From Eubacteriaceae bacterium (GTDB taxonomy: Bacteria > Bacillota > Clostridia > Eubacteriales > Eubacteriaceae): a stretch of 64,000 nucleotides of DNA. The stretch is from contig JAFRBB010000008.1 of the NCBI GenBank assembly GCA_017405085.1, positions 1,984 to 65,983 on the forward strand, in the 5' to 3' direction. Position 1 is the stretch's first letter; every line of letters begins with the position of its first letter. Of this stretch, positions 18,749 through 57,311 are shown in pieces. The notes beneath the pieces are model-generated. The model saw only the letters and a list, made by a program, of their open reading frames with translations. It did no database searches and had not been told where the DNA came from. The translations under genes were made by a program, and so were the position numbers.

Positions 18749-18788
18749 TTTGAATTTGCGGCACGACATCAAACGACAATTTCAAAAT

Positions 18789-18817
18789 CGCGTAGCCTTT
18801 GGTTACGCGGTTTTTTT
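18789..18817 (+). terminator. rho-independent terminator after rpsI
   Basis: CGCGTAGCC-TTT-GGTTACGCG forms a 9-bp stem (one G-U pair), followed by G and TTTTTTT. Confidence 0.85.
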
Positions 18818-18989
18818 ATGTGAGAATGACTTTGTTGGTTTATATAAATATAAATGATTAATTATATGGATAGTCGATTTGATCGTCAGGGATGAACATC
18901 TTTTATCATTATAGCTTAAAAACATATCATTCACTTAAGTTATATATATGATAGAATAAAATGACAGGTATAAAAAGCTAGAGAAATCC

Positions 18990-19018
18990 TTTCGCGGAAT
19001 AATAAATTCTGCGAAAAA
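18990..19018. repeat. left inverted repeat / candidate recombinase core site
   Basis: TTTCGCGGAATAATAAATTCTGCGAAAAA. It is internally dyad-symmetric, with 10-nt arms around AATAA. Confidence 0.9.
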
Positions 19019-19048
19019 TTAAGATGAAATTTCAGAAACTTTAAAGCT

Positions 19049-19077
19049 ATTTTACTATGTAAACGGATTTATGTCAA
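19049..19077 (-). promoter_or_regulatory. consensus sigma-70-type promoter pointing out of the element across the left repeat
   Basis: The minus strand reads TTGACA (19077-19072), a 17-nt spacer, then TAAAAT (19054-19049). Confidence 0.7.
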
Positions 19078-19162
19078 TTGGTGACACTACAAAAACAAGA
19101 CGGTTGATTTCTTTACTTTTTATCCTAAAACGCTTTAGGAAATGAGAAAGGAGATAAGTCGA

Positions 19163-20233
19163 ATGTCCAATTATTTTTTCAGTAATGCTGAGCTATCAGA
19201 ACGAATTGATCAAAAAATCTTGTATGTCTCATCCGATAAGTATATCGATCTGTCGAACCTTCAACCTGCCGAGGAGCGGTCGACCGACAATAAAACATCT
19301 TTTTCAGAAGTTGCGGGCGCATGGCTGAAATGGATTGAGCCGCGTCTAAAACTATCCAGTAAGAATAAATATGAATATATCACGAACTGTCATCTGCTTC
19401 CGGAATTTGGCAGTTTTTTTATTGAAGATATTTCAAGAACGGATGTTACGGTGTTTCGCGATACTTTAATGTTTCGGCTAGAGAGCAAATTACAAACGCC
19501 GCTGTCATCCGCAACGATCTCAGGCATTCTCAGCGTTTTGAAAAGTATATTTCGTTTTTCATCTGATGAACTCAATCTGAAAGTATTTGACATTGGCGGT
19601 ATTTCCGTGAAAACTGCGCAGAAGCCCCTTCAAATCCTCAGTCAAAGTGAACAACAAATTTTGAGTGATTATTTATTCGCAAATTATTCGTCAACGCATT
19701 TGGGTATCTTGATCTCATTATATATGGGACTTCGGTTAGGTGAAGTCTGTGCGCTTCAATGGCAAGATGTTTCCTTTGCTGATCAAACGATATTCGTACG
19801 GCAAACGATGCAACGCTTGAGATCAGACGAAGATCCTACGACACGAACAAAAGTCATTATTTCTGAGCCAAAAAGCGGACAATCTGTCAGACATGTGCCA
19901 ATTCCGGACAAACTCATGCATTTGTTTTGGGTATTGAATAAAGAAGATGGCGCCTTTGTTTTAAGCGGGAAAAAAGAAAAAGTTGTTGAGCCGAGAACAA
20001 TGCAAAATCGTTTTAAAACCATCCTGCGAAAATGTGGCATTAGAGATATCAACTATCACGCGCTCAGACACACTTTTGCCACACGAAGTGTAGAAGTTGG
20101 ATGTGATGTGAAAAGTCTCAGCGAAATTTTGGGTCATGCCTCTGTCGGCATAACTCTCAATCGATATGTTCATCCCTCAATGAAAATAAAAAAAGAACAA
20201 ATCAATCGTGTGTCGGATTTGTTCTCTGACTAA
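19163..20233 (+). CDS. tyrosine-type site-specific recombinase/integrase
   Basis: GLRLGEVCALQWQDV (Arg I), HALRHTFATR (His-x-x-Arg) and LGHASVGITLNRYVH (His/Tyr). An N-terminal SAM-like domain is present. ATG 19163 sits 9 nt after AAAGGAG, and the ORF could start at 19142. Confidence 0.9.
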   Translation: MSNYFFSNAELSERIDQKILYVSSDKYIDLSNLQPAEERSTDNKTSFSEVAGAWLKWIEPRLKLSSKNKYEYITNCHLLPEFGSFFIEDISRTDVTVFRDTLMFRLESKLQTPLSSATISGILSVLKSIFRFSSDELNLKVFDIGGISVKTAQKPLQILSQSEQQILSDYLFANYSSTHLGILISLYMGLRLGEVCALQWQDVSFADQTIFVRQTMQRLRSDEDPTTRTKVIISEPKSGQSVRHVPIPDKLMHLFWVLNKEDGAFVLSGKKEKVVEPRTMQNRFKTILRKCGIRDINYHALRHTFATRSVEVGCDVKSLSEILGHASVGITLNRYVHPSMKIKKEQINRVSDLFSD

Positions 20234-20241
20234 AAAGTATC

Positions 20242-20271
20242 GGCGTTACCTTTGTGTAACGTCGTTTTTTT
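20242..20271 (+). terminator. rho-independent terminator of the recombinase gene, just inside the right repeat
   Basis: GGCGTTAC-CTTTGT-GTAACGTC forms an 8-bp stem (one G-U pair). It is followed by G and TTTTTTT, and the T-run overlaps the right repeat. Confidence 0.75.
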
Positions 20272-20295
20272 CGCAGAATTTATTATTCCGCGAAA
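20267..20295. repeat. right inverted repeat / candidate recombinase core site
   Basis: TTTTTCGCAGAATTTATTATTCCGCGAAA is the reverse complement of 18990-19018 at 29 of 29 positions. Confidence 0.9.
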
Positions 20296-20542
20296 TGGTG
20301 GATACATTATAACTGATTTTGTGGAGAAGGGGTAGTATTTAAGGAAAAATTGTCGCTTTTCTTTAGAGATTATTCAACTAGATGATTGTGTCGCTCAAGT
20401 ACGTTATAAGGCTTTGTGAATGAATAGCAATGAATTGAAATGGACTTTATTTGGTTGAACTAGTGTTTACGGAAAAGAAATGAAGAGCGATAAATTATGG
20501 CACCCGCGCCGCGGCGCGTCGGATTCGAGAAGGGAGTTACTC

Positions 20543-23500
20543 ATGAAAAAGAAGATCACATCGGTTTTGATTATTTTGTTGTGCGTGTTGATGGCGGTGC
20601 CCTGGGGGGTGTTTGCTCAGGCGGTGAACGCGGAAAAGAGCGCGGAGAACACACAGCAGCAAGCCACCGCGCCGGCGCCAACCCCGACAACTGAGCAGCC
20701 GGCAGAGACGTCTGCCGAACCGCGGGATGAATCGGCAAGCACCTTGGCGGATTATCCTGCCGGGAGAGCGGTGCTACGTAACGGGGAATATTTGCATAGC
20801 GTTTTTAGACAATTAAGTGGAGATATGTCAGACGAACTATATTCAAACAGTACTATCAAAGCGATTTTGCGATCAAATAGTCCCGCACCGTCCAGTGTGT
20901 CAACCATAAATCTTTCTATTAGCGATGTGTCCGTCACGGCCTGGTGGAACGCTAGCAGTCAAACAATCTACTGGTATTCGGAAGATGCGAAACCGATGCT
21001 CAACGCAGATTCAAGAAACATGTTTCGTAAATTAGGCAGTGTTAAAAAGATAGATGTTTCACATTTTGACACCTCGAAAGTAAAAGATATGAGATATATG
21101 TTTTGGGATTGTTATAGCTTGACCGAACTTGACGTCTCAAGCATTGATACCTCGAACGTGACGGATATGGGCTATATGTTTTTCGAATGCCGTAGCTTAA
21201 CCGGTCTGAATCTATCAAGCTTTGACACATCGAACGTGACGAATATGAGCAGTATGTTTTCCGGTTGTTCAAAATTAACCTATCTGGATGTATCAAACTT
21301 TGACACATCAAAAGTGACTGATATGAATGGTATGTTTTCGGACTGTGAAAGCTTAACCAGCCTTGATTTATCTAATTTTGACACCTCAAAAGTGACAGAT
21401 ATGAACGGTATGTTTATGGAATGCGGGAGCTTAACCAGCCTTGATTTATCTAATTTTGACACATCGAAAGTGCTAGATATGGGTTGGATGTTTAGGGAGT
21501 CTGGACAATTAAAAACAATTTATGTTTCTGAAAGCTTCACAACTGTAGATGCTGAATATGCTGAATCCATTTACTATATGTTTGGTAGTTGTTATTCTTT
21601 AGTCGGCGGAAATGGCACCAAATACGATTCCAGCCATAAGGATGCGGAATACGCCCGCATCGACAAGCCCGGTCAGCCGGGATATTTCACGTATAAAAAA
21701 TCATCACTCATACCGAAACCCATCATACCAACTCCAACGCCGGTAACACCAACACCGGATCCGGAAATAGAACCCTTTAAATGGGGTGTGGATAATTTTA
21801 GTTTTGAAAATATATCTGAAAATTTTTATACAATTTTAGATTACACAATAGGAAAAATTACAGGTCGAAAATATAAAACATATCGAACGCTGATTAATGG
21901 TAAATATCAAAATGCTTTGAAAAGCAAACTATCTCCGAAAGAATATTCCCGTATACTTGGTGTTGATGTTAACTATGAGAGGCCGCTTTGGATTGACAAT
22001 AAAGGAGAAAAACATTATGAATCAGAGATTGACAAAGAATGGGGTGGTTCATGCCAGGGGATGTCCACTTTGGTGCTTTTAGGAAAAGCAGGAATGGTGC
22101 CTTATTCTGAGTATGGTGGCTCAAGCATCCATTCTCTGCCGATGCCTAAAGACAATGATGATCTCTGTTCGCTGATTAACTATTATCAATTAACGCAAAG
22201 TACAGATACACTTAGGCAATTAATCTTGGAGACATACAAGAAGACAGATAAACATAATATACAACAGATTTTAGTTGAATTAAAGAAAAATGGAACGGTG
22301 CTTGTTGGATATAATTATCCAGGAGAAGGGCATGCTGTGATTGCCTATGGTGAAGGGGACGGTAGGATAATAGACGGCAAAACCTATGATAAATCCATCA
22401 AGATATGCGATCCCAATGATACTACGGAAAATAGTAATAATTTTATCTATTATGACTCCAATACATATGATTGGATTATTCCTAAAAAAAATAAAAATAT
22501 TAAGTCTTCTGCAGGAGCGAAAATAAGTAATGTTCTATCAGATCCCATTATGGCGAATCATAGTGGTTATTTAAGTTTAAGCGTTAAAACAAACGTGGAT
22601 ACCGCGATGGACAATGGCGATATTTCGACATTAGAAAATAAGACTTATATCGCGAGATTGGAAATCTATCAAGGCAATGTCAGCGGCATCAAAAAAGTCA
22701 CCAAAGACATTAACGGCAATTATGTCGAAAAAGCCGATCAGGGTGACGGCAGCGACATTGTTAAAGAAACAATCTACTCAGGCGATCAAGACGCCAAAGG
22801 CACGCCCGGCTACACCTTAAGCGACGCCGAATCGGCCTATCAAGTCACTCAGGACACCGCCGGCCCCATGGAATTGGTCTTGGATTATGAAAACACCCTG
22901 TATCACGTTCGCGCGGAAAAAGCAAAATCCGTCATCTTCGATAAAAACGGCTTTGTCTCCGTGGATGCCGACAAAGGCAACTGCGCCGTGGAAATGACAA
23001 ACAACAACGACAACCCGACAGATTGGTTCACCAATTACGCCAAAACCACCGATGCGACCAAGCTATCCATGACCAAAACAAAAGAAGGTTATGAAGTGGC
23101 CTCCGACAACTTGAAAGACACCAAAGTCATGGCCGCCAATAAAGAAGAAACAAAAGAAGAAAATGTATCCACGCAGAAAGACAAAATGATCATCTGTGAA
23201 ACGAAAAAAGATCTGGATGTGAAAGTGGACAACACCGGCGATGGAAAATATGAAACATCCATCGTGGACAATGATAAACCCTCGGGCGATCAAGCCATCG
23301 CCTACCGCACCCACGTGCAAAATGTGGGCTGGCAACCCTATATGACCAACGGGACCATCGCGGGCACCAGCGGTTTCGGCTATCGTCTGGAAGCCATGAA
23401 CATTAATCTGCAGAATCAAAAATACACAGGAGACATCGAATACCGCACCCATATTGAAAACATCGGTTGGGAAAGCGAATGGAAAAAGAACGACGCCATG

Positions 23501-24259
23501 AGCGGCACCAGCAACAGAGGGCTTCGCCTGGAAGCCATGCAAGTTCGCCTGACCGGCGAAATGGCGGAAAAATATGATGTTTATTATCGGGTGCACGCGC
23601 AAAATATCGGCTGGCTCGGTTGGGCGAAAAACGGCGAAGAGTCCGGCACAGCGGGCTATGGCTATCGTCTGGAAGCCATGCAGATCATGTTGGTGGACAA
23701 AGGCGGGGCTGCGCCGACGATTGCCCCGACTTCGGCAACGGACAAACCCTTTGTGGAAAAATTTAAAGATAATGTGAAAACAGACAGCCTCGTCGCTTAT
23801 CAAAACCACGTGCAAAACGTGGGTTGGCAGAACTACGCGGTGGACGGCGGGGTTGCCGGCACCAGCGGCCTTGGTTATCGTTTGGAAGGCATGAAGATTT
23901 TTCTGAATAATCCGAAATACAAAGGGGATATTGAATACCGTACGCACATTGAGAACATCGGCTGGGAAAATGAATGGAAAAAGAATGACGCCATGAGCGG
24001 CACCAGCGGCCTCGGGTATCGTTTGGAAGCCATGCAGGTGCGCCTGACTGGTGAGATGGCGAGTCACTATGATGTGTATTATCGTGTTCACGCACAGAAT
24101 TTCGGCTGGCTTGGCTGGGCGAAAAACGGAGAAGAATCCGGCACAGAGGGCTATGGATACCGTCTGGAAGCCATGCAGATTGTGTTGGTGGATAAAGACC
24201 TCGCGGCACTGAATATTTTACTGGCAAATAATGAAAACAGTCCCTTTGTTCAGAAATAG
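20543..24259 (+). CDS. secreted modular surface protein: signal peptide, P/T linker, DUF285/BspA-type LRR array, Cys-His-Asp peptidase-like domain, 6 ChW repeats
   Basis: MKKKITSVLIILLCVLMAVPWGVFAQAVNA signal peptide after a GGGAG RBS. About six FDTSKVTDMxxMFxxCxSLTxLDLSN units are present. GGSCQGMS, GEGHAVIAYG and ICDPND motifs follow. Six YRTHVQNVGWQ...GTSG...RLEAM repeats (ChW, Pfam PF07538-like) end the protein. The ORF-track start at 20480 is an upstream extension. Confidence 0.9.
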   Translation: MKKKITSVLIILLCVLMAVPWGVFAQAVNAEKSAENTQQQATAPAPTPTTEQPAETSAEPRDESASTLADYPAGRAVLRNGEYLHSVFRQLSGDMSDELYSNSTIKAILRSNSPAPSSVSTINLSISDVSVTAWWNASSQTIYWYSEDAKPMLNADSRNMFRKLGSVKKIDVSHFDTSKVKDMRYMFWDCYSLTELDVSSIDTSNVTDMGYMFFECRSLTGLNLSSFDTSNVTNMSSMFSGCSKLTYLDVSNFDTSKVTDMNGMFSDCESLTSLDLSNFDTSKVTDMNGMFMECGSLTSLDLSNFDTSKVLDMGWMFRESGQLKTIYVSESFTTVDAEYAESIYYMFGSCYSLVGGNGTKYDSSHKDAEYARIDKPGQPGYFTYKKSSLIPKPIIPTPTPVTPTPDPEIEPFKWGVDNFSFENISENFYTILDYTIGKITGRKYKTYRTLINGKYQNALKSKLSPKEYSRILGVDVNYERPLWIDNKGEKHYESEIDKEWGGSCQGMSTLVLLGKAGMVPYSEYGGSSIHSLPMPKDNDDLCSLINYYQLTQSTDTLRQLILETYKKTDKHNIQQILVELKKNGTVLVGYNYPGEGHAVIAYGEGDGRIIDGKTYDKSIKICDPNDTTENSNNFIYYDSNTYDWIIPKKNKNIKSSAGAKISNVLSDPIMANHSGYLSLSVKTNVDTAMDNGDISTLENKTYIARLEIYQGNVSGIKKVTKDINGNYVEKADQGDGSDIVKETIYSGDQDAKGTPGYTLSDAESAYQVTQDTAGPMELVLDYENTLYHVRAEKAKSVIFDKNGFVSVDADKGNCAVEMTNNNDNPTDWFTNYAKTTDATKLSMTKTKEGYEVASDNLKDTKVMAANKEETKEENVSTQKDKMIICETKKDLDVKVDNTGDGKYETSIVDNDKPSGDQAIAYRTHVQNVGWQPYMTNGTIAGTSGFGYRLEAMNINLQNQKYTGDIEYRTHIENIGWESEWKKNDAMSGTSNRGLRLEAMQVRLTGEMAEKYDVYYRVHAQNIGWLGWAKNGEESGTAGYGYRLEAMQIMLVDKGGAAPTIAPTSATDKPFVEKFKDNVKTDSLVAYQNHVQNVGWQNYAVDGGVAGTSGLGYRLEGMKIFLNNPKYKGDIEYRTHIENIGWENEWKKNDAMSGTSGLGYRLEAMQVRLTGEMASHYDVYYRVHAQNFGWLGWAKNGEESGTEGYGYRLEAMQIVLVDKDLAALNILLANNENSPFVQK
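21275..21500 (+). repeat. in-frame tandem repeats of the LRR coding unit, including a perfect 35-bp duplicate spaced 78 bp apart
   Basis: AGCTTAACCAGCCTTGATTTATCTAATTTTGACAC occurs at 21350 and again at 21428. The flanking units are highly similar. Confidence 0.8.
23291..24195 (+). repeat. ChW x6 coding block, copy A of a near-identical dispersed direct repeat
   Basis: It aligns without gaps to 24608-25512 (offset 1317) and to 29379-30283 (offset 6088). A-C similarity extends upstream to 22646 and 28734. Confidence 0.9.
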
Positions 24260-24487
24260 GATGGTGAATAAAATAATTTCGAGCGCTCTGATGGTCACAC
24301 TTACCCCATTTGTATAAAAGCAACACAACGCAACAAAGACAATCGAAAATGAAAATGCAAATTTTCAGTGAAATCAAGAAACAAAAAAACCGGAGGTGCG
24401 CAAAAGAAAATATAAAAGCAACAAACCATCATTTTGAATTGACCTTTACTGCCCATGAGATTCAAATAATTAATGAAAGGAAAACAT

Positions 24488-26572
24488 ATGAAAACCAAAT
24501 CTAAAGTTTTATTGAGTTTGATTGTTCTGATGGCGATGATGATCTTTTCGGCACCGGCGATGGCGCAGAATGCGGAAGGCAACGGTACTGCCAATGCGAC
24601 AGATAATCAAGCCATTGCCTACCGCACCCATGTGGAAAATGTGGGCTGGCAACCCTATATGACCAATGGCACCATCGCGGGTACCAGCGGTTTCGGTTAT
24701 CGTCTGGAAGCCATGAACATTAATCTGCAGAATCAAAAATACACCGGCGACATTGAATACCGCACCCACATAGAAAATATCGGTTGGGAAAATGAATGGA
24801 AAAAGAATGACGCCATGAGCGGCACCAGCAACAGAGGGCTTCGCCTGGAAGCCATGCAGGTGCGTTTGACTGGAGAGATGGCGGAAAAATATGATGTGTA
24901 CTACCGTGTTCACGCGCAAAATATCGGCTGGCTCGGCTGGGCGAAAAACGGAGAAGAGTCCGGCACGGCGGGCTATGGCTATCGCCTGGAAGCCATGCAG
25001 ATCATGCTGGTGGATAAAGGCGGGGCTGCGCCGACGATTGCCCCGACCTCGGCAACGGACAAATCCTTTGTGGAAAAATTTAAAGATAACGTGAAAACGG
25101 ATAGCCTCGTCGCTTATCAAAACCACGTGCAAAATGTGGGCTGGCAGAATTACGCGGTGGACGGCGGCGTTGCCGGCACCAGCGGCCTGGGTTATCGTTT
25201 GGAAGGCATGAAGATCTTTCTGAATAATCCGAAATACAAAGGGGATATTGAATATCGTACGCACATTGAGAATATCGGCTGGGAAAATGAATGGAAAAAG
25301 AATAACGCCATGAGCGGCACTAGTGGGCTCGGGTATCGTCTGGAAGCCATGCAAATTCGTTTGACCGGTGAAATGGCGGAAAAATATGATGTGTATTACC
25401 GTGTGCACGCGCAGAATATTGGATGGCTCGGTTGGGCGAAAAACGGAGAAGAATCCGGCACGGCGGGCTATGGCTACCGTCTGGAAGCCATGCAGATTGT
25501 GTTGGTGGACAAAGGCGGCAAGGCGCCGAACATTTCGCCGGCGAGCAATGACAACAGAGCGTTTATTGATAAAAACGCGCAGCCTGTACAACCCGTCGAA
25601 CCGGATAAACCCACATCAGACAGAGCGGTGCTGGATACCGGGAAAAATGTAAACACCGCTATCAAACAACTTAGCGGACAGGATGTTAGACAAGATATTG
25701 AAGCATACTATTCAGCAAATAATACAATAAAAGCGATTTTACGTTCAAAAAGTCCGGCTCCGTCAAGTATGACAACAAAAAATCTTTCGACAACAAGTAT
25801 GTCGGTCACAGCTTGGTGGGATGCAAACAGTCAAACAATTTATTGGTATTCGGAAGATTCGAATCCGATGTTAAACGAAGATTCCAGTCATATGTTTGCT
25901 AGGTTACTTGTTGTGGAAAACATAGATTTATCATATTTTGATACATCAAAAGTAACAAATATGTGTGGTATGTTTAGCGGTGATATTATGAGCGTTAATA
26001 GATTAGCCAATCTGGACGTTTCACATTTTGACACATCCCAGGTGACGAATATGAATGCCATGTTTGCCGATTGTGGCTTAACCGATCTGGACTTATCAAA
26101 CTTTGATACATCGAAGGTGACGAATATGAGTCAGATGTTTTACGGCTGTAGTAGCTTAATCAATCTGGACTTATCAAACTTTGACACATCGAAGGTGACG
26201 AATATGGGAAGTATGTTTAGCGGCTGTAATAGTTTAACCAGTCTGAACATGACGAATTTTAACACATCGAACGTGACGGGTATGTCCAATATGTTTGCTT
26301 ACTGTAAAAATATGACTGCTCTGGATGTATCGAACTTTGACACATCAAAAGTGACAGAGATGGCTAATATGTTTTCTGATTGCAATAAGTTAAAAACGAT
26401 ATACGTTTCCGACAAATTTACAACCCAAAGTGTAAATTCAAATTGGTGGATGTTTAGTGGTTGTTACTCTTTAATCGGTGGCAACGGCACCCCATATGAC
26501 GATAATCATAGAGATAAGGAATACGCCCGCATCGACAAACCGGGTCAGCCGGGATATTTTACACAGAAATAA
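24488..26572 (+). CDS. secreted surface protein: signal peptide, 6 ChW repeats, linker, DUF285/BspA-type LRR array
   Basis: MKTKSKVLLSLIVLMAMMIFSAPAMA signal peptide. The ChW block is followed by AILRSKSPAPS..., about seven FDTSKVTNM... units and a ...YARIDKPGQPGYFTQK C-terminus. The start could instead be 24473. Confidence 0.9.
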   Translation: MKTKSKVLLSLIVLMAMMIFSAPAMAQNAEGNGTANATDNQAIAYRTHVENVGWQPYMTNGTIAGTSGFGYRLEAMNINLQNQKYTGDIEYRTHIENIGWENEWKKNDAMSGTSNRGLRLEAMQVRLTGEMAEKYDVYYRVHAQNIGWLGWAKNGEESGTAGYGYRLEAMQIMLVDKGGAAPTIAPTSATDKSFVEKFKDNVKTDSLVAYQNHVQNVGWQNYAVDGGVAGTSGLGYRLEGMKIFLNNPKYKGDIEYRTHIENIGWENEWKKNNAMSGTSGLGYRLEAMQIRLTGEMAEKYDVYYRVHAQNIGWLGWAKNGEESGTAGYGYRLEAMQIVLVDKGGKAPNISPASNDNRAFIDKNAQPVQPVEPDKPTSDRAVLDTGKNVNTAIKQLSGQDVRQDIEAYYSANNTIKAILRSKSPAPSSMTTKNLSTTSMSVTAWWDANSQTIYWYSEDSNPMLNEDSSHMFARLLVVENIDLSYFDTSKVTNMCGMFSGDIMSVNRLANLDVSHFDTSQVTNMNAMFADCGLTDLDLSNFDTSKVTNMSQMFYGCSSLINLDLSNFDTSKVTNMGSMFSGCNSLTSLNMTNFNTSNVTGMSNMFAYCKNMTALDVSNFDTSKVTEMANMFSDCNKLKTIYVSDKFTTQSVNSNWWMFSGCYSLIGGNGTPYDDNHRDKEYARIDKPGQPGYFTQK
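24608..25512 (+). repeat. ChW x6 coding block, copy B
   Basis: It matches copies A and C. B-C similarity continues to about 25640 and 30411. Confidence 0.9.
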
Positions 26573-26720
26573 CGGCTCGTAGTTAATAGGAAAAATATTT
26601 CGGGCGCTCACAAGAGCGCCCCGCATCCCCGTTCAATCGGGGATGAAAAGAAAAGGGAGAGCATAAAGTTTTTTACGGCACCGGCGCCGCGGCGCATTGG
26701 ATTCGAGAAGGGAGTTTCTC

Positions 26721-29700
26721 ATGAAAAAGAAGATTACATCGGTTTTGATTATTATGCTGTGCGTGTTGATGGCGGTGCCCTGGGGTGTGTTTGCCCAGGC
26801 GGTGAACGCGGAAAAGAGCGCGGAGAACACACAGCAGCAGACCACTGCGCCCGCGCCAACCCCGACGCCGGAGACCACCGTGCCCGCGGCGGAGCCGACA
26901 CCGGAAGAACCGACGGTGACGCCTTCACCGGAGCCCACTACGACTGCGCCAGAGCCGACGCCAAATCAACCGGCGGAGACACCTCAGGAATCTCAGGATG
27001 AATCGGTGAGCACCTTGGCGGATTATCCCGACGGGAGAGCGGTGTTGGATACCGGGGATAACGTAAACTACGCGATTAAGCAACTGACCGGACAGGATAT
27101 GAAAAGATACAGGGGGAACGAAACAATACAAGCGATTCTACGTTCAAACAGTCCGGCGCCGGCAGGTGTGACGACAAAAAACCTTTCCATCAGCCGTGTG
27201 CCGGTGATAGCTTGGTGGGACGCGCAAGCTAAAACAATTTACTGGTATTCGAAAGATTCGAAACCGATGCTAAACGCGGATTCCGTACGTATATTCAGCT
27301 ACTTTACGCAATTAACCAGACTGGATTTATCACACTTTGACACATCGAAGGTGACAGATATGGGCGCGATGTTCGCTTACTGTGGTAAGCTAACTAGCTT
27401 GGATGTAACGCGTTTTAACACGTCGAATGTGACTAGTATGGAAAGTATGTTTGCAAACTGTCATGCAACCAGTTTGGATTTATCACATTTTGACACCTCG
27501 AAGGTGACAGATATACGTAATATGTTTTGGGGTTGTTCCGGTTTAACAAGGCTTGATTTATCTCGGTTTAACACATCGAAAGTGACTAATATGAGTTATA
27601 TGTTTTACTGTTGTACAAGTTTAACCAGACTGGATATATCAAATTTCGATACATCAAAAGTGACTAATATGAGTTTTATGTTTCTCCATTGCAGAAGTTT
27701 AAAAACCATTTACGCGTCTGAAAAATTTAAAACTCTCAATGTAACAGAATCAGATAATATGTTTAATGACTGTATTGCTTTGATTGGTGGCAACGGTACA
27801 GGATACGACGCTAACCATACAGATATTGAATACGCTCGCATCGACAAGCCGGGTCAACCGGGATATTTCACGGAAAAAGAAGCCTTTGAATGGGGTGTGG
27901 ATAATTTTAACTTTACCAATGAACGTTTAAATTTTTATACACTTGGAGAATTATTTACACCCAATGTAAAAACATATAGAACACTGATCAATTCTAAGTA
28001 TGTTCATGCTTTAGGTGATAAATTAACTGCGAAAGAATTTGCGTACATTTTGAGTGGCTATAATCCAACCGGAGAACCGTTGTGGGCAGACAAAGAAGGC
28101 AATGAACATTATGAACCAAGGATTGACCAAAATTGGTTTGGGGCGTGTAATGGCATGTCTTCTTTGGTTCTTTTGGGAAAAGCGGGAATGGTGCCGTATT
28201 CAGAGTATGGCGGATCAAGCATTCATTCTCTTTCTAAACCTGTTGATAATGATGAACTCAGTTCTCTAATTACCTATTATCAATTATTACAGTTTAAAGA
28301 TTGGAATTGGCGATTGAGTAGTAGGACATTAAAGCAAACTCATGCGACTAACATACAGAATATCTTGAAAGGTTTGAAGAAAAAGGGAACTGTGCTTGTT
28401 GGTTATCAATCCTCGCATGGTGGACACGTCGTAATTGCGTATGGTGAAGGAGACGGCAGGACTATAAACGGAAGAATGTATGATAAATGTATCAAGATAT
28501 GTGATCCCAATGATACTTCGGAAAACAGTGATAACTTTCTGTATTATGATTCAAAAACATATGATTGGATTATTCCCAAAAATGAAAAGATTATTTCTGC
28601 GGAAGGAGCGAAAATAAATACTGTTTTATCAAATCCTGCTGATGTAAATCATGACGGATATTTGAGTACCAATATCAGAACATACTCGGACGATACAACT
28701 GATGATGATATTTCGCTATTAGAAGACGCACCATATATTGCGAGATTGGAAATCTATCAAGGTAATGTCAGTGGCATCAAAAAAGTCACTAAAGACGCGA
28801 ACGGCAATTATGTCGAAAAAGCCGAACAAGGTGACGGCAGCGATATTGTGAAAGAAACATTTTATTCAGGTGATCAGGATGACAAAGGCATACCCGGTTA
28901 CACCTTAAGCGACGCCGAATCGGCGTATAAAGTCACTCAGAATACTGCCGGTCCCATGGAATTAATCCTGGATTATGAAAACACCCTGTATCACGTTCGC
29001 GCGGAAAAGGCCAAATCTGTCATCTTCGATAAAAACGGTTTTGTCTCTGTGGATGCCGACAAAGGCAACTGCGCCGTTGAAATGACAAACAACAACGACA
29101 ATCCGACGGATTGGTTTACCAATTACGCCAAAACCACCGACGCCACCAAGCTCTCCATGACCAAGACAAACCAAGGTTATGAAGTGGCCTCCGACAACTT
29201 AAAAGACACCAAAGTCATGGCCGCCAATAAAGAAGAAACCAAAGAAGAAAAGGTATCAACGCAGAAAGACAAAATGATCATCTGCGAAACGAAAAAAGAT
29301 TTGGATGTGAAAGTGGACAACACCGGCGATGGAAAATATGAAACATCTATCGTGGACGAGGCTAAACCCTCGGACGAGCAAGCCATCGCCTACCGCACTC
29401 ATGTGCAAAATGTCGGATGGCAACCCTATATGACCAACGGAACTATCGCGGGTACCAGCGGTTTCGGTTATCGTCTGGAAGCCATGAACATTAATCTGCA
29501 GAATCAAAAATACACCGGCGACATTGAATACCGCACCCACATTGAAAACATCGGTTGGGAAAATGAATGGAAAAAGAATGACGCCATGAGCGGCACCAGC
29601 GGTCTCGGGTATCGTCTGGAAGCAATGCAGATCCGTTTGACTGGAGGGATGGCGGAAAAATATGATGTGTACTACCGGGTGCACGCGCAAAATATCGGCT

Positions 29701-31631
29701 GGCTCGGTTGGGCGAAAAACGGAGAAGAGTCCGGTACAGCAGGCTATGGCTATCGTCTGGAAGCCATGCAGATTATGCTGGTGGACAAAGGCGGGGCTGC
29801 GCCAACAATCGCGCCGACTTCGGCAACGGACAAACCCTTTGTGGAAAAATTTAAAAATAACGTGAAAACGGATAGCCTCGTCGCTTATCAAAACCACGTG
29901 CAAAATGTGGGCTGGCAGAATTACGCGGTGGACGGCGGCGTTGCCGGGACCAGCGGCCTTGGTTATCGTTTGGAAGGCATGAAGATCTTTCTGAATAATC
30001 CGAAATACAAAGGGGATATTGAATACCGTACGCACATTGAGAACATCGGCTGGGAAAATGAATGGAAAAAGAATGACGCCATGAGCGGCACCAGTGGTCT
30101 CGGGTATCGTCTGGAAGCCATGCAGATCCGTTTGACCGGTGAGATGGCCAATCACTACGATGTTTATTATCGTGTTCATGCGCAGAATATCGGATGGCTC
30201 GGCTGGGCGAAAAACGGAGAAGAGTCCGGCACGGCGGGCTATGGCTACCGCCTGGAAGCCATGCAGATTGTGTTGGTGGACAAAGGTGGCAAGGCGCCGA
30301 ACATTTCGCCGGCGAGCAATGACAACAGAGCGTTTATTGATAAAAACGCGCAGCCTGTACAACCCGTCGAACCGGATAAACCCACATCAGACAGAGCGGT
30401 GTTGGATACCGGGAAAAATGTGAATACCTCGATCAAACAATTGAGCGGAGACGGTTCAAACTACAATGATGATAACAAAACGATAAAAGCGGTTGTACGA
30501 TCGAACAGTCCGGCGCCGTCAGGTGTGACAACCAAGAATTTGTCTACAACAAGTGTGCCGATCACAGCCTGGTGGGTCGCGAGCAGCCAAACAATTTATT
30601 GGTATTCAAAAGATCCGAAACCGATGCTCAACGCGGATTCCAGCTATATGTTTGCAGATTTATATGTTGTAGAAAATATAGATGCAGCGCACTTTGACAC
30701 ATCGAACGTGACGAATATGAGCAATATGTTTGTTTCCTGTGAAAGTTTAACTGATTTGAATGTGAAAAACTTAGATACATCGAAAGTAACTGATATGCAC
30801 GATATGTTTTTCGGCTGTAAGGGTTTAACCAGTCTTGACTTGAAAAATTTCAACACATCGAACGTGACAAGCATGTTCGCTATGTTTTCTGGTTGTGAAA
30901 GCTTAACCAATTTGAACGTCACGCATTTTAATACATCGAAAGTGACTGATATGAATTATATGTTTTCCGAATGTAAAAGTTTAGCCAATTTGGATGTCAC
31001 ACATTTTGACACATCGAATGTGACTGAGTTTCAAGCTATGTTTAGGAATTGTGATAGCTTAACCAGTCTGGATGTTACGCATTTTGACACATCGAAAGTA
31101 GCTACAATGGAGAGTATGTTTGAAAGCTGTGATAGATTAACTAATCTGGACGTCACACATTTCGACACTTCGAATGTAACGACTATGCGTATGATGTTTT
31201 GCTTATGTAAAAGTTTAGTCGATTTGGACGTCACACATTTTAACACATCGAATGTGACGAATATGCTGGATATGTTTATAGGATGCAGTAATTTAACCAA
31301 TTTGGACGTCACGCACTTTGACACATCGAATGTGACTAATATGAACGGTATGTTTGCTAACTGTGATAGCTTAACCAGTCTGGATGTCACAAGTTTTAAC
31401 ACATCGAATGTGACTTCAATGAGCAGCATGTTTGCTAGTTGTAAAAATTTAAAAACGATATACGCATCCAATGAATTCACAATAGGGAATGATCAGTCTT
31501 CTAGCAGAATGTTTATATATTCCTCCGCTTTAGTCGGGGGCAAAGGCACCGCATATGACGCCAACCATACGGATGGCGAATACGCTCGAATTGATAAGGA
31601 AGGTCAGCCGGGCTATTTCACACAGAAATAA
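26721..31631 (+). CDS. secreted giant surface protein: signal peptide, P/T linker, LRR array 1, Cys-His-Asp peptidase-like domain, 6 ChW repeats, linker, LRR array 2 (about 11 units)
   Basis: It shares its leader and signal peptide with the 20543 gene (MKKKITSVLIIMLCVLMAVPWGVFAQAVNA). FGACNGMS, HGGHVVIAYG and ICDPND motifs are present. The ChW block and the C-terminal half are colinear with the 24488 gene. Confidence 0.9.
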   Translation: MKKKITSVLIIMLCVLMAVPWGVFAQAVNAEKSAENTQQQTTAPAPTPTPETTVPAAEPTPEEPTVTPSPEPTTTAPEPTPNQPAETPQESQDESVSTLADYPDGRAVLDTGDNVNYAIKQLTGQDMKRYRGNETIQAILRSNSPAPAGVTTKNLSISRVPVIAWWDAQAKTIYWYSKDSKPMLNADSVRIFSYFTQLTRLDLSHFDTSKVTDMGAMFAYCGKLTSLDVTRFNTSNVTSMESMFANCHATSLDLSHFDTSKVTDIRNMFWGCSGLTRLDLSRFNTSKVTNMSYMFYCCTSLTRLDISNFDTSKVTNMSFMFLHCRSLKTIYASEKFKTLNVTESDNMFNDCIALIGGNGTGYDANHTDIEYARIDKPGQPGYFTEKEAFEWGVDNFNFTNERLNFYTLGELFTPNVKTYRTLINSKYVHALGDKLTAKEFAYILSGYNPTGEPLWADKEGNEHYEPRIDQNWFGACNGMSSLVLLGKAGMVPYSEYGGSSIHSLSKPVDNDELSSLITYYQLLQFKDWNWRLSSRTLKQTHATNIQNILKGLKKKGTVLVGYQSSHGGHVVIAYGEGDGRTINGRMYDKCIKICDPNDTSENSDNFLYYDSKTYDWIIPKNEKIISAEGAKINTVLSNPADVNHDGYLSTNIRTYSDDTTDDDISLLEDAPYIARLEIYQGNVSGIKKVTKDANGNYVEKAEQGDGSDIVKETFYSGDQDDKGIPGYTLSDAESAYKVTQNTAGPMELILDYENTLYHVRAEKAKSVIFDKNGFVSVDADKGNCAVEMTNNNDNPTDWFTNYAKTTDATKLSMTKTNQGYEVASDNLKDTKVMAANKEETKEEKVSTQKDKMIICETKKDLDVKVDNTGDGKYETSIVDEAKPSDEQAIAYRTHVQNVGWQPYMTNGTIAGTSGFGYRLEAMNINLQNQKYTGDIEYRTHIENIGWENEWKKNDAMSGTSGLGYRLEAMQIRLTGGMAEKYDVYYRVHAQNIGWLGWAKNGEESGTAGYGYRLEAMQIMLVDKGGAAPTIAPTSATDKPFVEKFKNNVKTDSLVAYQNHVQNVGWQNYAVDGGVAGTSGLGYRLEGMKIFLNNPKYKGDIEYRTHIENIGWENEWKKNDAMSGTSGLGYRLEAMQIRLTGEMANHYDVYYRVHAQNIGWLGWAKNGEESGTAGYGYRLEAMQIVLVDKGGKAPNISPASNDNRAFIDKNAQPVQPVEPDKPTSDRAVLDTGKNVNTSIKQLSGDGSNYNDDNKTIKAVVRSNSPAPSGVTTKNLSTTSVPITAWWVASSQTIYWYSKDPKPMLNADSSYMFADLYVVENIDAAHFDTSNVTNMSNMFVSCESLTDLNVKNLDTSKVTDMHDMFFGCKGLTSLDLKNFNTSNVTSMFAMFSGCESLTNLNVTHFNTSKVTDMNYMFSECKSLANLDVTHFDTSNVTEFQAMFRNCDSLTSLDVTHFDTSKVATMESMFESCDRLTNLDVTHFDTSNVTTMRMMFCLCKSLVDLDVTHFNTSNVTNMLDMFIGCSNLTNLDVTHFDTSNVTNMNGMFANCDSLTSLDVTSFNTSNVTSMSSMFASCKNLKTIYASNEFTIGNDQSSSRMFIYSSALVGGKGTAYDANHTDGEYARIDKEGQPGYFTQK
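29379..30283 (+). repeat. ChW x6 coding block, copy C
   Basis: It matches copy A (offset 6088) and copy B (offset 4771) without gaps. Confidence 0.9.
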
Positions 31632-31734
31632 AGGCGCATTATTGCTAGAAAAAATGAATTTCGGGCGCTCGCAAGAGCGCCCGCATCCCATGAAGCGATA
31701 AAGCATCAATACAAAGAGAGAGGAGATAAGATTA

Positions 31735-54115: not shown

Positions 54116-54670
54116 ATTAATAATGAATAATGAATGATTAATGATGAATAATTCTGGATGAAACTCGGCTTTGCCGAGTTTTTGATTTTAGAATAAGTTG
54201 CTGAGTACACAGCCTTCCCTAGATTAGGAATACCCTAGGGCACCTTCTCTGTTGCCCCGCCCATCAGGCGGCGTGGCAACATTCACCTTGAGGTGGCATC
54301 TCGCTTTTGGCGAGATGACGGAAGGGTTCTTTGGCGTGAGCTTTTCGCTATCCTTTTTTGGGCAGTTTTCTCGCTTTGCTCGAAAACATCCGTTTGGGAC
54401 AGCGATCCCTCACTTAAGTGGGCATCCAAATTTTAATTTGGCCTATGCGAACTTATCGAGCGAAGCGGGTGGACAAGCGCCCCTCGTCACGCTCGGGCTT
54501 ACCCCTCAGTCGCCTTCGGCGCCCCTACCATCAGTCATGCTTGCGCATGACAGCTCCCTCCCCGGAGGGGAAGAAGCCTTTTTGAGGCAGGTTTTTGGGT
54601 CAATGCGCTCAGCAAGTTTATTTTCAATTTGAAATTCGGCTCGGTCGGATTTCTACATGAATCATTAATC
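54116..54670. repeat. MITE-like, hairpin-rich intergenic repeat element, copy 1
   Basis: AT-rich termini (GATTAATAATGAATAATGAATGATTAATGA... and ...ACATGAATCATTAATC) are inverted relative to each other. Each terminus is followed inward by a hairpin and a GCTGAG box. The interior is a chain of short GC hairpins. It is related to 56863-57311. The left-end hairpin AAACTCGGC-TTT-GCCGAGTTT plus T-run doubles as the mnmA terminator. Confidence 0.65.
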
Positions 54671-56023: not shown

Positions 56024-56205
56024 TAGATTCTCCTTTGGCTGTGATGGTGGTATGAGTATACCATAATTTAAATGGATGCGTGCCGGTTTTCCCGATTGTT
56101 CTGGTGAAAACCGTAAATTGTCGGTTACGAAGCCTTGTCGCGGCATGTACGTTGTGATAAAATAGTTATGAAATCATTTCCAAGCGATATACGCGGGGAG
56201 GTTAT

Positions 56206-56874: not shown

Positions 56875-57311
56875 TAATGAATAATGAATAATTTAGGATG
56901 AAACTCAATCGAGCTGAGTTTCGGATTGGATTTTTGGGGATGGGCTTTGTAAGTCGTTTGTAACGTGGCTGAGTACATGGCCTCCCCTCCACCCGCTTCG
57001 CTCGATAAGTTCGCATGGTCCAAATCAAATATTTGGATGCTCACTTATAAATTAGGGGAGGTGGCGCCCGAAGGGCGTCGGAAGGGTTCTTCCTCGAACA
57101 GCTAACGAGAATTGACGTGTTTCAAAGGCTTTTTACGAGAGAACCCTTCAGTCCGGCATAGCCGAACAGCTTCCCTTATCAAGGGAAGGCTTTTTGCCGC
57201 GTTGCATTTAGGCTTTGACAAAGTCGACTGACTTGTGTGTTCAGTAAGCTTTTCAAATTTGAAATCCTGCTTGCCGGATTTCCACATGAATCATTAATCA
57301 TTCATCATTCA
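56863..57311. repeat. MITE-like, hairpin-rich intergenic repeat element, copy 2
   Basis: It has the same AT-rich inverted termini and subterminal hairpins as copy 1. Its left terminus supplies the last codons and stop of recX plus a hairpin and T-run. Confidence 0.65.

What the first reader, a model, noticed from the sequence alone, without database searches (positions are those of the whole stretch)
18990..20542. Self-contained tyrosine-recombinase inverton with an outward consensus promoter, apparently OFF, upstream of a 1238-aa surface-protein gene
Seen directly: TTTCGCGGAATAATAAATTCTGCGAAAAA (18990-19018) is the exact reverse complement of 20267-20295, 29 of 29 positions. Each copy is itself an imperfect dyad. 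The arms TTCGCGGAAT and ATTCTGCGAA are complementary at 9 of 10 positions around a 5-nt AATAA centre. This is the layout of a tyrosine-recombinase core site, with two binding arms around an asymmetric crossover spacer. The spacer and the G/A arm asymmetry have opposite polarity at the two sites, which predicts inversion rather than excision. The only gene between the sites is a 356-aa tyrosine recombinase with intact Arg, His-x-x-Arg and Tyr motifs. About 30-60 nt inside the left repeat, the minus strand carries TTGACA-17 nt-TAAAAT (19077-19049), firing out of the element. At present it points into a ~170-bp AT-rich stretch with no ORF that ends at the rpsI terminator. At the other end, an intrinsic terminator (20242-20271) blocks recombinase read-through. 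The ~250 nt between the right repeat and ATG 20543 show no convincing -35/-10. Flipping 19019-20266 would place the consensus promoter at about 20208-20236 on the plus strand, roughly 300 nt upstream of the LRR/ChW gene. That would be an ON/OFF phase switch captured in the OFF state. A recombinase inside the invertible segment is classical for serine invertases (Hin/Gin). As far as I know, a self-contained tyrosine-recombinase version gating a BspA-LRR/ChW surface-protein cluster has not been described.
Basis: partly seen in the sequence, partly recalled or inferred. Interest (0 to 1): 0.88.

Follow-up and report, generated by a model that had tools for sequence, protein, structure and literature searches.

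The report
Self-contained tyrosine-recombinase promoter switch
A 1.3-kb DNA cassette carrying its own recombinase and a strong outward promoter can flip between two 29-base inverted repeats. It very probably switches a neighbouring surface-protein gene on and off, and it belongs to a large family of such cassettes in gut Clostridia that I could not find described.

Summary

1. Two sister-strain contigs are 99% identical to each other (L096 is 96% identical to the window). They carry the same cassette in opposite orientations between the same two flanks.
2. The recombinase has all six catalytic residues and dN/dS of about 0.19.
3. The site layout is a 10-nt arm, a 5-nt spacer and a 10-nt arm. 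It recurs in about 88 genome stretches, mostly Lachnospiraceae and other Clostridia. Sites occur in inverted pairs with exactly reverse-complementary, pair-specific spacers. No direct pair was found.
4. In 27 of 33 recombinase-containing cassettes, an 11-12/12 TTGACA-17-TATAAT promoter points outward at the end far from the recombinase. It occurs in 0 of 33 cases in each of three control positions.
5. Two other family members, each with an identical recombinase protein, were assembled in both orientations between 96-100% identical flanks. A variant outer arm stays with its flank, which places the crossover inside the site.

Family targets are surface proteins, glycosyltransferase operons, type VII secretion genes and TnpB-like genes.

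Not shown: flipping in this exact strain, promoter activity, or dependence of the LRR/ChW gene on the switch.

Novelty: a new variant of a known kind. No paper describing the cassette was found. A 2025 survey reports a possibly related Clostridia inverton group.

The parts
18990..19018 (.). Left inverted repeat. The core recombination site is 18991-15: outer arm TTCGCGGAAT, spacer AATAA, inner arm ATTCTGCGAA.
   Evidence: 29/29 complementary to 20267-20295. Unique in the window. Same site layout in about 88 genome stretches.
19019..20266 (.). Invertible segment, 1248 nt between the repeats.
   Evidence: Found in the opposite orientation relative to both flanks in L007 versus L096, at 99% identity.
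19049..19077 (-). Outward promoter TTGACA-17-TAAAAT, firing leftwards through the left repeat in this orientation.
   Evidence: 11/12 match. Both hexamers invariant in 4 strains. Same position and direction in 27/33 family cassettes versus 0/33 in controls.
19163..20233 (+). Tyrosine recombinase, 356 aa. Catalytic residues R191, K237, H299, R302, H325, Y335. It lacks the N-terminal arm-binding domain seen in most relatives.
   Evidence: Pfam. Alignment to Tn1549 Int, 6EN0. Catalytic residues invariant in 30/30 cassette recombinases. dN/dS 0.19.
20241..20271 (+). Intrinsic terminator after the recombinase gene. Its T-run overlaps the right repeat.
   Evidence: 9-bp stem with 5 GC pairs, followed by T7.
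20267..20295 (.). Right inverted repeat. Inner arm TTCGCAGAAT, spacer TTATT, outer arm ATTCCGCGAA.
20296..20542 (+). Leader between the switch and the target gene, with no promoter-like or terminator-like site on the plus strand.
   Evidence: No Rfam family.
20543..24259 (+). Putative switched gene: a secreted ChW/DUF285/BspA-LRR surface protein of 1238 aa. It is the first of a paralogue cluster: 24473-26572, 26697-31631 and 31735-34020.
   Evidence: Pfam. ORFs.
18784..18814 (.). rpsI terminator hairpin. It would also stop the outward promoter's transcript in the present orientation.
   Evidence: 14-bp stem. On the minus strand the hairpin is followed by ATTTTGAAA (read).
18930..18957 (+). Promoter-like site outside the left repeat, reading into the cassette: TTCACT-16-TAGAAT with TG upstream. 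It might drive the recombinase only in the present orientation. This is speculative.
   Evidence: 9/12 with an extended -10. The -10 and TG are conserved in L096 and L007.

Best explanation
The segment 19019-20266 is an autonomous invertible promoter cassette. Its own tyrosine recombinase binds the two 10-nt arms of each 25-nt site. It exchanges strands within or next to the 5-nt asymmetric spacer. Because the two sites are inverted, the reaction flips the 1.25-kb segment. The segment carries a near-consensus sigma-70 promoter about 50 nt inside the recombinase-distal end, pointing outwards. In the orientation in this window the promoter faces the 3' end of rpsI and its terminator. The recombinase's own terminator blocks read-through towards the other side. 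The ChW/LRR surface-protein gene at 20543 has no recognisable promoter of its own, so it is predicted to be OFF. After inversion the promoter would sit at 20208-20236 (+) and read through the right repeat and a 250-nt leader into that gene, giving ON. Shown here: the repeats, the intact and selected recombinase, conservation of the promoter, in-situ inversion between sister strains, and the same architecture and inversion across a large family. Inferred: promoter activity, dependence of the downstream gene on it, switching in this particular strain, and the exact cleavage positions.
For: Anatomy. In-situ inversion: L007 versus L096 is 99.0% identical over the 1303-nt cassette (+/+), 98.7% over 771 nt of rpsI flank (+/-), and shares the first 8 nt of the other flank (+/-). 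Graph-branch signatures: L098 and L099, assembled separately (one ENA scaffold, one Logan contig), both end at ...TTTATTATTCC, one base before the only position where the two outer arms of that strain differ. L100 runs from repeat to repeat, with 0 and 2 nt to spare. Recombinase function: dN/dS 0.19. All six catalytic residues align with Tn1549 Int and are invariant in 30/30 relatives. Family sites: 88 genome stretches carry TTCGCRGAAT-N5-ATTCYGCGAA. Every pair is inverted with exactly complementary spacers, even where the arms carry 1-5 mismatches, and there are no direct pairs. The recombinase 3' end lies about 50-70 nt inside one site. Family promoter: an outward 11-12/12 promoter in 27/33 cassettes versus 0/33 in each of three controls. 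Both orientations elsewhere: P0033 (L101 versus L102, flanks 100% identical) and P0117 (L110 versus L112). In both, the variant outer arm stays with its flank. Homologous flanking genes occur on either side of the cassette, for example TnpB-like genes 5 ON and 5 OFF in the first 23-locus survey (the wider sets give about 7 and 6), and GT4 genes 1 and 1. Targets are typical phase-variable functions: surface proteins, GT operons, T7SS.
Against: No contig of the window's own strain (L001-L006) shows the flipped orientation. The 31 nt of non-rpsI flank in L007 match L096 for only 8 nt, so the gene switched ON there is unknown. The promoter is a consensus match only, with no transcript data. The simple scan could miss a non-consensus promoter in the 250-nt leader. 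The palindromic site in the 5' UTR could affect expression. The nearest solved relative is a conjugative-transposon integrase (Tn1549), a family that tolerates non-homologous crossover regions. Homology-directed inversion is therefore inferred from the spacer pattern, not from family membership.
Confidence: 0.82

Rival explanations
1. The cassette is a small mobile element: a mini-transposon with terminal inverted repeats, a tyrosine transposase and an outward promoter. On this view the opposite orientations in different strains come from independent insertions or excision and re-insertion, not from in-place inversion.
For: The cassettes are multi-copy in some genomes and spread over many genera. 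Recurrent spacers (TGGAT, TGGGT) are shared across genomes. The cassette is AT-rich relative to its flanks. The nearest structure is a Tn916-family integrase. Several cassettes travel with TnpB-like or PDDEXK_2 transposase-like genes.
Against: Both junctions are identical to the base in the two orientations, within 96-100% identical flanks, in three independent cases. Both outer arms are conserved parts of complete palindromic sites rather than variable target DNA. The variant outer arm stays with the flank. Partner spacers are always exact reverse complements and never direct. No target-site duplication is visible at 18980-18989 versus 20296-20305. No empty site or circular junction was seen. 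Past mobility of the family is not excluded and is compatible with inversion being the present activity.
Confidence: 0.06
2. The segment inverts, but the promoter does not gate the ChW/LRR gene. Instead the inversion mainly regulates the recombinase itself, or produces antisense or terminated transcripts, and the downstream gene has its own promoter.
For: The leader is 250 nt here and about 650 nt in L096. The downstream region differs between the window and L096 from 16 nt beyond the right repeat. A conserved promoter-like site outside the left repeat reads into the cassette.
Against: No plus-strand promoter of 9/12 or better lies in the leader. Across the family, the gene on the read-through side usually starts 0-150 nt from the site and always reads away from the cassette. 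The non-target flank typically has a T-run straight after the palindromic site: mean 5.5 of 9 bases versus 2.3 on the target side, n=18. That is the design expected of an ON/OFF promoter switch.
Confidence: 0.1
3. The feature is the remnant of a degraded integrated element whose integrase happens to be flanked by an inverted repeat, with no present function.
For: The protein is annotated only as 'site-specific integrase', and phage-type integrases are common.
Against: The ORF is intact under purifying selection. A 29/29 repeat has 0 chance expectation. The family-wide architecture is conserved. No phage genes are nearby. The site motif gave only 1 hit in 2.9 million viral contigs.
Confidence: 0.01

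Closest known systems
E. coli fimS switch with FimB/FimE, and related ipuS, hyxS and mrp switches
   Same: A tyrosine recombinase inverts a promoter-bearing segment between short inverted repeats to turn a surface-structure gene on or off.
   Different: The fim recombinase genes lie outside the 314-bp element, the repeats are 9 bp, and host factors (IHF, Lrp) are needed. Here the recombinase gene is inside a 1.25-kb element. The sites are 25-nt palindromic-arm sites with a 5-nt spacer. The protein is not a FimB-type invertase: NF007370 scores E=0.008, far below its cutoff.
Clostridioides difficile RecV switches (cwpV, flgB, cmrRST, pdcB)
   Same: A Clostridia tyrosine recombinase drives inversion-based ON/OFF control of a cell-wall or surface protein (papers listed).
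   Different: RecV is a single unlinked recombinase serving several short switches. cwpV is regulated through a terminator rather than by promoter delivery. Here each cassette carries its own recombinase and a consensus promoter.
Bacteroides promoter invertons (Mpi; Tsr recombinases)
   Same: Many promoter switches per genome, with a shared repeat motif, control capsule and surface genes. This family also includes recombinase-less short invertons with the same sites.
   Different: Mpi is a serine recombinase. The Tsr tyrosine recombinases lie beside, not within, the inverted DNA. The promoters follow the Bacteroides consensus, not TTGACA-17-TATAAT.
Hin/Gin/Cin/Pin serine invertase cassettes
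   Same: The recombinase gene lies inside the invertible segment. In the Hin case an outward promoter sits at one end.
   Different: Those are serine recombinases that depend on an enhancer and Fis, with 26-bp hix/gix sites and a 2-bp crossover. Here the enzyme is a tyrosine recombinase.
Phase-variable type I restriction hsdS loci with an embedded tyrosine recombinase (S. pneumoniae CreX/PsrA and relatives)
   Same: A tyrosine recombinase gene lies within or between the inverting repeats, so 'self-contained' tyrosine systems do exist (my own knowledge; related papers PMC7096588 and PMC7672463 are listed).
   Different: Those repeats are inside coding sequence and shuffle hsdS domains. No promoter is delivered.
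Tn916/Tn1549 conjugative-transposon integrases
   Same: Closest solved structure, 6EN0/6EMY. Two thirds of family members carry the same type of N-terminal RKRxDGRWEGRY domain.
   Different: There is no Xis and there are no conjugation genes. Both ends are complete palindromic sites with complementary spacers. The outcome observed is inversion. The window protein lacks the N-terminal arm-binding domain.
'Inverton group 139 / invertase group 35' of PMC11892184 (Microbiome 2025)
   Same: 32 of its 33 invertons are from Clostridia. Repeats are about 25 nt (one example given). The group is statistically linked to a nearby tyrosine recombinase group, and flipping was seen in reads.
   Different: Those invertons are about 230 bp with the recombinase nearby, not inside. 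The repeat motif is not given in the text held, so identity with this family could not be tested.

Membership tests
Tyrosine site-specific recombinase (PF00589) | Catalytic domain with the R-K-H-R-H/W-Y residues. | tested here: met
   PF00589 E=2.5e-24. R191, K237, H299, R302, H325 and Y335 align with Tn1549 Int and are invariant in 30/30 relatives.
Promoter inverton (invertible promoter phase switch) | Inverted repeats flanking a segment that carries an outward-facing promoter. | tested here: met
   29/29 repeat. 11/12 promoter pointing out of the segment. Conserved in the strains and in the family.
Promoter inverton (invertible promoter phase switch) | Both orientations exist at the same locus. 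| tested here: met
   Met for sister strains 96-99% identical (L007 versus L096) and for two other family members. Contig-end signatures agree. Not observed in the window's own strain.
Promoter inverton (invertible promoter phase switch) | Expression of the adjacent gene depends on orientation. | not testable with these tools
   Needs RNA-seq or a reporter assay. The only indirect evidence is that no other promoter is seen in the leader.
Simple two-arm core site with an asymmetric crossover spacer (lox/FRT/dif type) | Two inverted recombinase-binding arms around a short asymmetric spacer, with partner sites sharing the spacer. | tested here: met
   10+5+10 nt layout. Spacers were exactly reverse-complementary in every pair examined (about 50) and were never direct. 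Cleavage positions are unknown.
FimB/FimE-type DNA invertase (NF007370) | Sequence membership above the curated cutoff. | tested here: not met
   15.8 bits against a cutoff of 221.
XerC/XerD/XerS/XerA chromosome-dimer resolvases | Equivalog score; a single dif-like site. | tested here: not met
   Best 86.6 bits against cutoffs of 220-335. There are two inverted sites flanking the gene.
Tn916-family conjugative or mobilisable transposon | Int with an N-terminal arm-binding domain, Xis, transfer genes, and variable coupling sequences at the ends. | tested here: not met
   The catalytic domain is most similar to Tn1549 Int. But the window protein lacks the RKRxDGRWEGRY N-terminus, the recombinase is the only gene in the segment, and both ends are complete conserved sites.
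Serine DNA invertase cassette (Hin/Gin) | Serine recombinase (resolvase domain). | tested here: not met
   No resolvase domain. The protein is PF00589.
Insertion sequence or transposon with terminal inverted repeats | Target-site duplication; the same element at unrelated loci with variable flanks adjoining the repeats. | tested here: not met
   No direct repeat flanks the element. There is one copy in the window. Orientation variants share both junctions. Family-level mobility was not excluded.
Prophage or phage integrase | Adjacent phage genes; attL/attR as direct repeats. | tested here: not met
   The neighbours are rpsI and surface-protein genes. The repeats are inverted. There was 1 motif hit in the viral contig collection.

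The most novel reading that the evidence does not exclude
The window holds one member of a large superfamily of autonomous promoter-plus-tyrosine-recombinase inversion cassettes in gut Clostridia, which I could not find described as such. The cassettes are 1.1-3.9 kb. They have palindromic 10-nt arms and pair-specific 5-nt spacers, a consensus outward promoter at one end, and a site that doubles as a terminator on the non-target side. They sit in front of surface proteins, glycosyltransferase operons, type VII secretion genes and, repeatedly, TnpB-like nuclease genes. Recombinase-less short invertons share the same sites. Published inverton surveys would miss the cassettes because one restricted its training set to sequences under 300 bases and another reports examples of about 230 bp.
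Probability: 0.55. Interest if true: 0.85.

Novelty: new variant of a known kind. Interest (0 to 1): 0.74.

Why it matters
Phase variation by promoter inversion is well mapped in Bacteroides, E. coli and C. difficile. It is hardly mapped in the Lachnospiraceae, Eubacteriaceae and Oscillospiraceae that dominate animal guts.

This locus and its relatives show a compact, portable design. One cassette supplies the recombinase, its sites, a strong promoter and often a terminator. Any gene next to it could therefore become phase-variable.

The design gives a simple sequence signature: recombinase 3' end, then site; complementary 5-nt spacers; and an outward TTGACA-17-TATAAT. That signature could be used to catalogue switchable surface proteins, capsule or glycosylation operons and secretion systems in uncultured gut Firmicutes.

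It also suggests that read-based inverton surveys restricted to short elements under-count such switches.

The repeated link to TnpB-like genes hints that expression of transposon-associated RNA-guided nucleases may itself be phase-variable. I am not aware of any description of that.

The short sites with programmable spacers could also be useful as orthogonal inversion tools.

Tried and rejected
1. An exact-site scan of JGI metagenome contigs gave 0 hits, so no extra orientation data came from there.
2. Literature searches found only primers and unrelated text for the arm sequence. Combinations of inverton, tyrosine recombinase, Lachnospiraceae, Clostridia and TnpB found no description of the cassette. 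Jiang et al. 2019 is not held. The group-139 motif of PMC11892184 is not in the supplement text held.
3. Rfam found no family anywhere in the window, so the leader holds no known riboswitch or leader RNA.
4. The isolate 'Bacterium 1xD42-87' has a 2294-nt contig running exactly from repeat to repeat, plus two contig ends at the same site (L034, L043, L058). I do not count this as proof of flipping. The repeat there is about 35 nt and the assembler's k-mer size is unknown, so the repeat alone may have broken the assembly.
5. I considered whether the L098/L099 contig ends reflect a mix with the window strain. The nearest strain-specific SNP is 36 nt upstream, so a k=31 graph would have merged 6 nt earlier. 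The break instead falls at the outer-arm polymorphism (reasoning). A third strain with a variant at that base cannot be excluded.
6. No target-site duplication flanks the element.
7. A search for direct-orientation partner sites found none.
8. No recombinase lies within 8 kb of the short invertons, so those must be served in trans.
9. One sampled homologue (P0079, L115) showed no site pair under my strict palindrome criteria. I did not pursue it.
Full report
**1. The observation**

- Positions 18990-19018 (TTTCGCGGAATAATAAATTCTGCGAAAAA) and 20267-20295 are perfect reverse complements, 29/29, with 1248 nt between them.
- The 25-nt core is found only at these two places in the 64-kb window even with three mismatches allowed. 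None is expected in 100 dinucleotide-preserving shuffles.
- Each copy is an imperfect dyad. TTCGCGGAAT and ATTCTGCGAA are complementary at 9/10 around AATAA. The spacer points in opposite directions at the two sites.
- The only credible gene between the sites is 19163-20233 (+), 356 aa, with an RBS GGAGA 8 nt upstream. It matches Phage_integrase (E=2.5e-24) and Phage_int_SAM_3.
- TTGACA-17-TAAAAT lies on the minus strand at 19077-19049. It scores 11/12, the best promoter-like site in the 2.7 kb scanned.
- A terminator hairpin at 20241-20264 is followed by seven T that run into the right repeat.
- No plus-strand promoter-like site of 9/12 or better lies in 20296-20542.
- Upstream are rplM and rpsI with a strong terminator at 18784-18814. 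Downstream is a 1238-aa ChW/DUF285/BspA-LRR protein with a signal peptide. It is the first of four ChW paralogues.

**2. Is the recombinase alive?**

- The closest solved structures are the Tn1549 (Tn916-family) integrase complexes 6EN0/6EMY.
- R191, K237, H299, R302, H325 and Y335 align with the catalytic residues. They are invariant in 30 of 30 related cassette recombinases.
- Against the 85%-identical allele of a sister strain, dN/dS is 0.19: 0.16 in the N-terminal half and 0.10 in the C-terminal half.
- The protein is not a member of the Xer, integron or FimB-type equivalog families.
- It lacks the N-terminal RKRxDGRWEGRY arm-binding domain that about two thirds of its relatives carry.

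**3. Does this element invert?**

The identical protein (P0001, from a MAG labelled Eubacteriaceae) occurs on several contigs, all in the window's orientation. The 90%-identity cluster of P0002 gave the decisive material.

- L096 is a 43.6-kb contig, 96% identical to the window over 9.2 kb. It has the window's orientation: rpsI, then recombinase, then ChW-type surface genes.
- L007 comes from another sample. It is 99.0% identical to L096 across the 1303-nt cassette on the same strand.
- L007 is 98.7% identical to L096 across 771 nt of rpsI flank on the opposite strand. The 8 nt adjoining the other repeat also match in reverse.
- So the same cassette sits between the same two junctions in the opposite orientation.

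Contig ends give further support.
- In the L096 strain the two outer arms differ at one base: TTTCGTGGAAT against TTTCGCGGAAT.
- Two separately assembled contigs, one ENA scaffold (L098) and one Logan contig (L099), both stop at ...TTTATTATTCC, exactly one base before that position.
- A de Bruijn graph would branch at that point if the inner end of the cassette is joined to either outer arm in the reads.
- The nearest difference from the co-occurring window strain is 36 nt upstream, so it would not produce a break there at k=31.
- L100, from a further sample, runs from repeat to repeat with 0 and 2 nt to spare.

I count these contig ends as supporting evidence, not proof.

**4. The family**

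Sites and pairing:
- Scanning one genome per species for TTCGCRGAAT-N5-ATTCYGCGAA gave 88 stretches. Almost all come from Lachnospiraceae, Oscillospiraceae, Eubacteriaceae and other Clostridia, including isolates.
- The consensus is TTCGCAGAAT-N5-ATTCTGCGAA: perfect palindromic arms and a variable 5-nt spacer.
- Wherever two sites lie in one stretch, their spacers are exact reverse complements: TGGAT/ATCCA, TGGGT/ACCCA, CCGGC/GCCGG and so on.
- A looser search found about 22 more partners with 1-5 arm mismatches but still exact spacer complements. It found no partner in direct orientation.
- Seven more pairs are split across adjacent 8-kb blocks of one contig.

Architecture:
- A homologue of the window's recombinase (32-49% identity) lies inside most pairs. 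Its 3' end is typically 50-70 nt from one site.
- Thirty-three non-redundant cassettes were oriented with the recombinase on the plus strand. In 27 of them an 11-12/12 TTGACA-17-TATAAT promoter points outward within 160 nt of the recombinase-distal end.
- None of the 33 has such a site in the inward direction at that end, or in either direction at the other end.
- Cassettes are 1.1-3.9 kb. The longer ones carry extra genes, PDDEXK_2 or Uma2-like.

Closer homologues with different arms:
- Homologues 46-51% identical to the window's recombinase use the same layout with other arm sequences: TTCGTAGAGT-GTCAT-ACTCTACGAA, TCTCAGAGT-AAATC-ACTCTGAGA and TACGCAGAGT-GTTTT-ACTCTGCGTA.
- So the family is wider than the motif I scanned for.

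Other observations:
- Short recombinase-less invertons (161-407 nt) with the same sites and 11-12/12 promoters also exist. No recombinase lies within 8 kb of them.
- Only one hit was found in 2.9 million viral contigs.

**5. Inversion in the family**

- P0033 is an identical protein seen in 176 blocks of the collection. It is assembled with YukD/EssC (type VII secretion) genes on the promoter side in L101 and on the recombinase-3' side in L102-L104.
- L101 and L102 have 100% identical 2813-nt flanks on both sides, inverted relative to the 1480-nt cassette. The one outer arm that carries a variant base (TTCTTAGAGT) stays with its flank in both.
- P0117 behaves the same way with an HTH-GT2-GT2 operon (L110 against L112).
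- This places the crossover inside the site, as expected for a tyrosine recombinase acting on a lox-like core.
- Homologous flanking genes are found on either side in different genomes. TnpB-like genes are five on the promoter side and five on the other in the first 23-locus survey (the wider sets give about seven and six), and GT4 genes are one and one.

**6. How it most likely works**

- The recombinase binds the four arms, synapses the two sites and exchanges strands around the 5-nt spacer. An odd-length spacer can never be palindromic, so it always gives the site a direction. Inverted sites therefore give inversion.
- The promoter fires through the distal site. In one orientation it reads into the target gene.
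- In the other orientation it reads into a non-target flank. In the family that flank usually begins with a T-run: mean 5.5 of 9 bases against 2.3 on the target side, n=18. The palindromic site plus the T-run then resembles an intrinsic terminator.
- In the window the non-target side has no clean T-run, but the rpsI terminator lies 175 nt further on. No minus-strand ORF longer than 43 aa lies between.
- The recombinase's own terminator prevents read-through into the target in the present orientation.
- The window is therefore read as OFF for the 20543 gene. This last step, and the promoter's activity, are inferred.

**7. Comparison with what is known**

- In function this is a fimS-like, RecV-like or Bacteroides-like promoter inverton.
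- In layout it resembles the Hin cassette, with the recombinase inside and the promoter at one end, but it uses a tyrosine enzyme whose catalytic domain is closest to Tn916-family integrases.
- Tyrosine recombinases inside inverting DNA are known for hsdS shufflons (my own knowledge).
- PMC11892184 reports a Clostridia inverton group with 25-nt repeats, about 230 bp long, statistically linked to a tyrosine recombinase group and seen flipping in reads. It may correspond to the short satellites found here, but its motif is not available as text.
- One published survey restricted its training set to invertons shorter than 300 bases. PMC11892184 reports examples of about 230 bp. Cassettes of 1.1 kb or more are therefore likely to have been missed.
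- Eight literature searches found no description of the cassette architecture. Subscription-only papers were not searchable.

**8. Verdict**

- Confidence is about 0.8 that this is an autonomous invertible promoter cassette gating the adjacent surface-protein gene.
- Confidence is above 0.9 that the segment inverts in this lineage.
- It is a new variant of a known kind.
- The wider interest lies in the size and regularity of the family and in its unexpected association with TnpB-like genes.

Noticed in passing
L025, L041, L053, L059, L067, L012, L105 (promoter side); L028, L050, L051, L075, L086, L068 (recombinase-3' side): A TnpB-like gene of 434-472 aa (PF07282, Cas12f1-like TNB domain) starts 0-100 nt outside the repeat of about 13 cassettes. 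It always reads away from the cassette and lies on either side in different genomes. This suggests phase-variable expression of a transposon-associated nuclease.
   Followed up: partly
window 54124-54145 / 57290-57311 and 54432-54473 / 56988-57029: Two nested inverted-repeat pairs (22 nt at 95% and 42 nt at 93%) enclose a DUF815 AAA-ATPase gene (54740-56146, minus strand) and a 242-aa ORF with no Pfam family. They lie between mnmA and a 2-hydroxyacid dehydrogenase gene. There is no recombinase inside, and the repeats are unlike the switch sites.
   Followed up: partly
window 19163-20233 versus L007 202-1272: The recombinase is a mosaic between strains. Synonymous divergence is 0.96 in the N-terminal half and 0.11 in the C-terminal half, while the flanking housekeeping DNA is about 96% identical. 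This suggests allelic exchange or fast turnover of the DNA-binding half.
   Followed up: partly
family cassettes, flanks next to the sites (for example L025, L059, L066, L071, L085, L112): The flank on the non-target side usually begins with a T-run straight after the palindromic site: mean 5.5 T in 9 bases against 2.3 on the target side, n=18. The site itself would then act as an intrinsic terminator on that side.
   Followed up: partly
L040, L094, L010, L035, L076, L016, L048, L057, L074, L061: Short invertons (161-407 nt; L076 is 1159 nt with a Uma2-like gene) share the family's sites. Several have 11-12/12 promoters. None has a recombinase within the 8-kb block. One rabbit-gut MAG (CANRPS...) has four of about 200 nt. 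These are presumably served in trans.
   Followed up: partly
window 18930-18957 (+): A promoter-like site with an extended -10 (TTCACT-16-TGaTAGAAT) lies just outside the left repeat and reads into the cassette. Its -10 is conserved in L096 and L007. It could express the recombinase only in the present orientation, a form of orientational control.
   Followed up: no
window 20311 onwards versus L096 9149 onwards: The window and L096 are 96% identical up to 16 nt beyond the right repeat and then diverge. L096 has an extra CHAP/ricin-lectin/ChW gene (827 aa) and a 650-nt leader. The gene placed under the switch therefore differs between close strains.
   Followed up: partly
window 20543-34020 and 47941-50067: This is a cluster of ChW/DUF285/LRR paralogues with long near-identical internal repeats. 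One example is the 78-nt periodic LRR units at 20975-21493. There are also 426-495-nt segments repeated at about 23.3, 24.6, 25.1, 29.4 and 29.9 kb. Such repeats are a likely substrate for recombination among surface-protein genes.
   Followed up: no
L046 site at contig position 39849 and L032 site at 46828 (contig CAMODT010000138.1): A third site with the complementary spacer (AAGGC against GCCTT) lies 7 kb from a cassette's site. This hints at multi-site, shufflon-like arrangements in some genomes.
   Followed up: no
L028, L041, L050; L025, L034, L086, L076: The longer cassettes carry passenger genes between the promoter and the recombinase. Some carry one or two PDDEXK_2 'transposase' genes; others carry a 193-201-aa Uma2-like protein.
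   Followed up: partly
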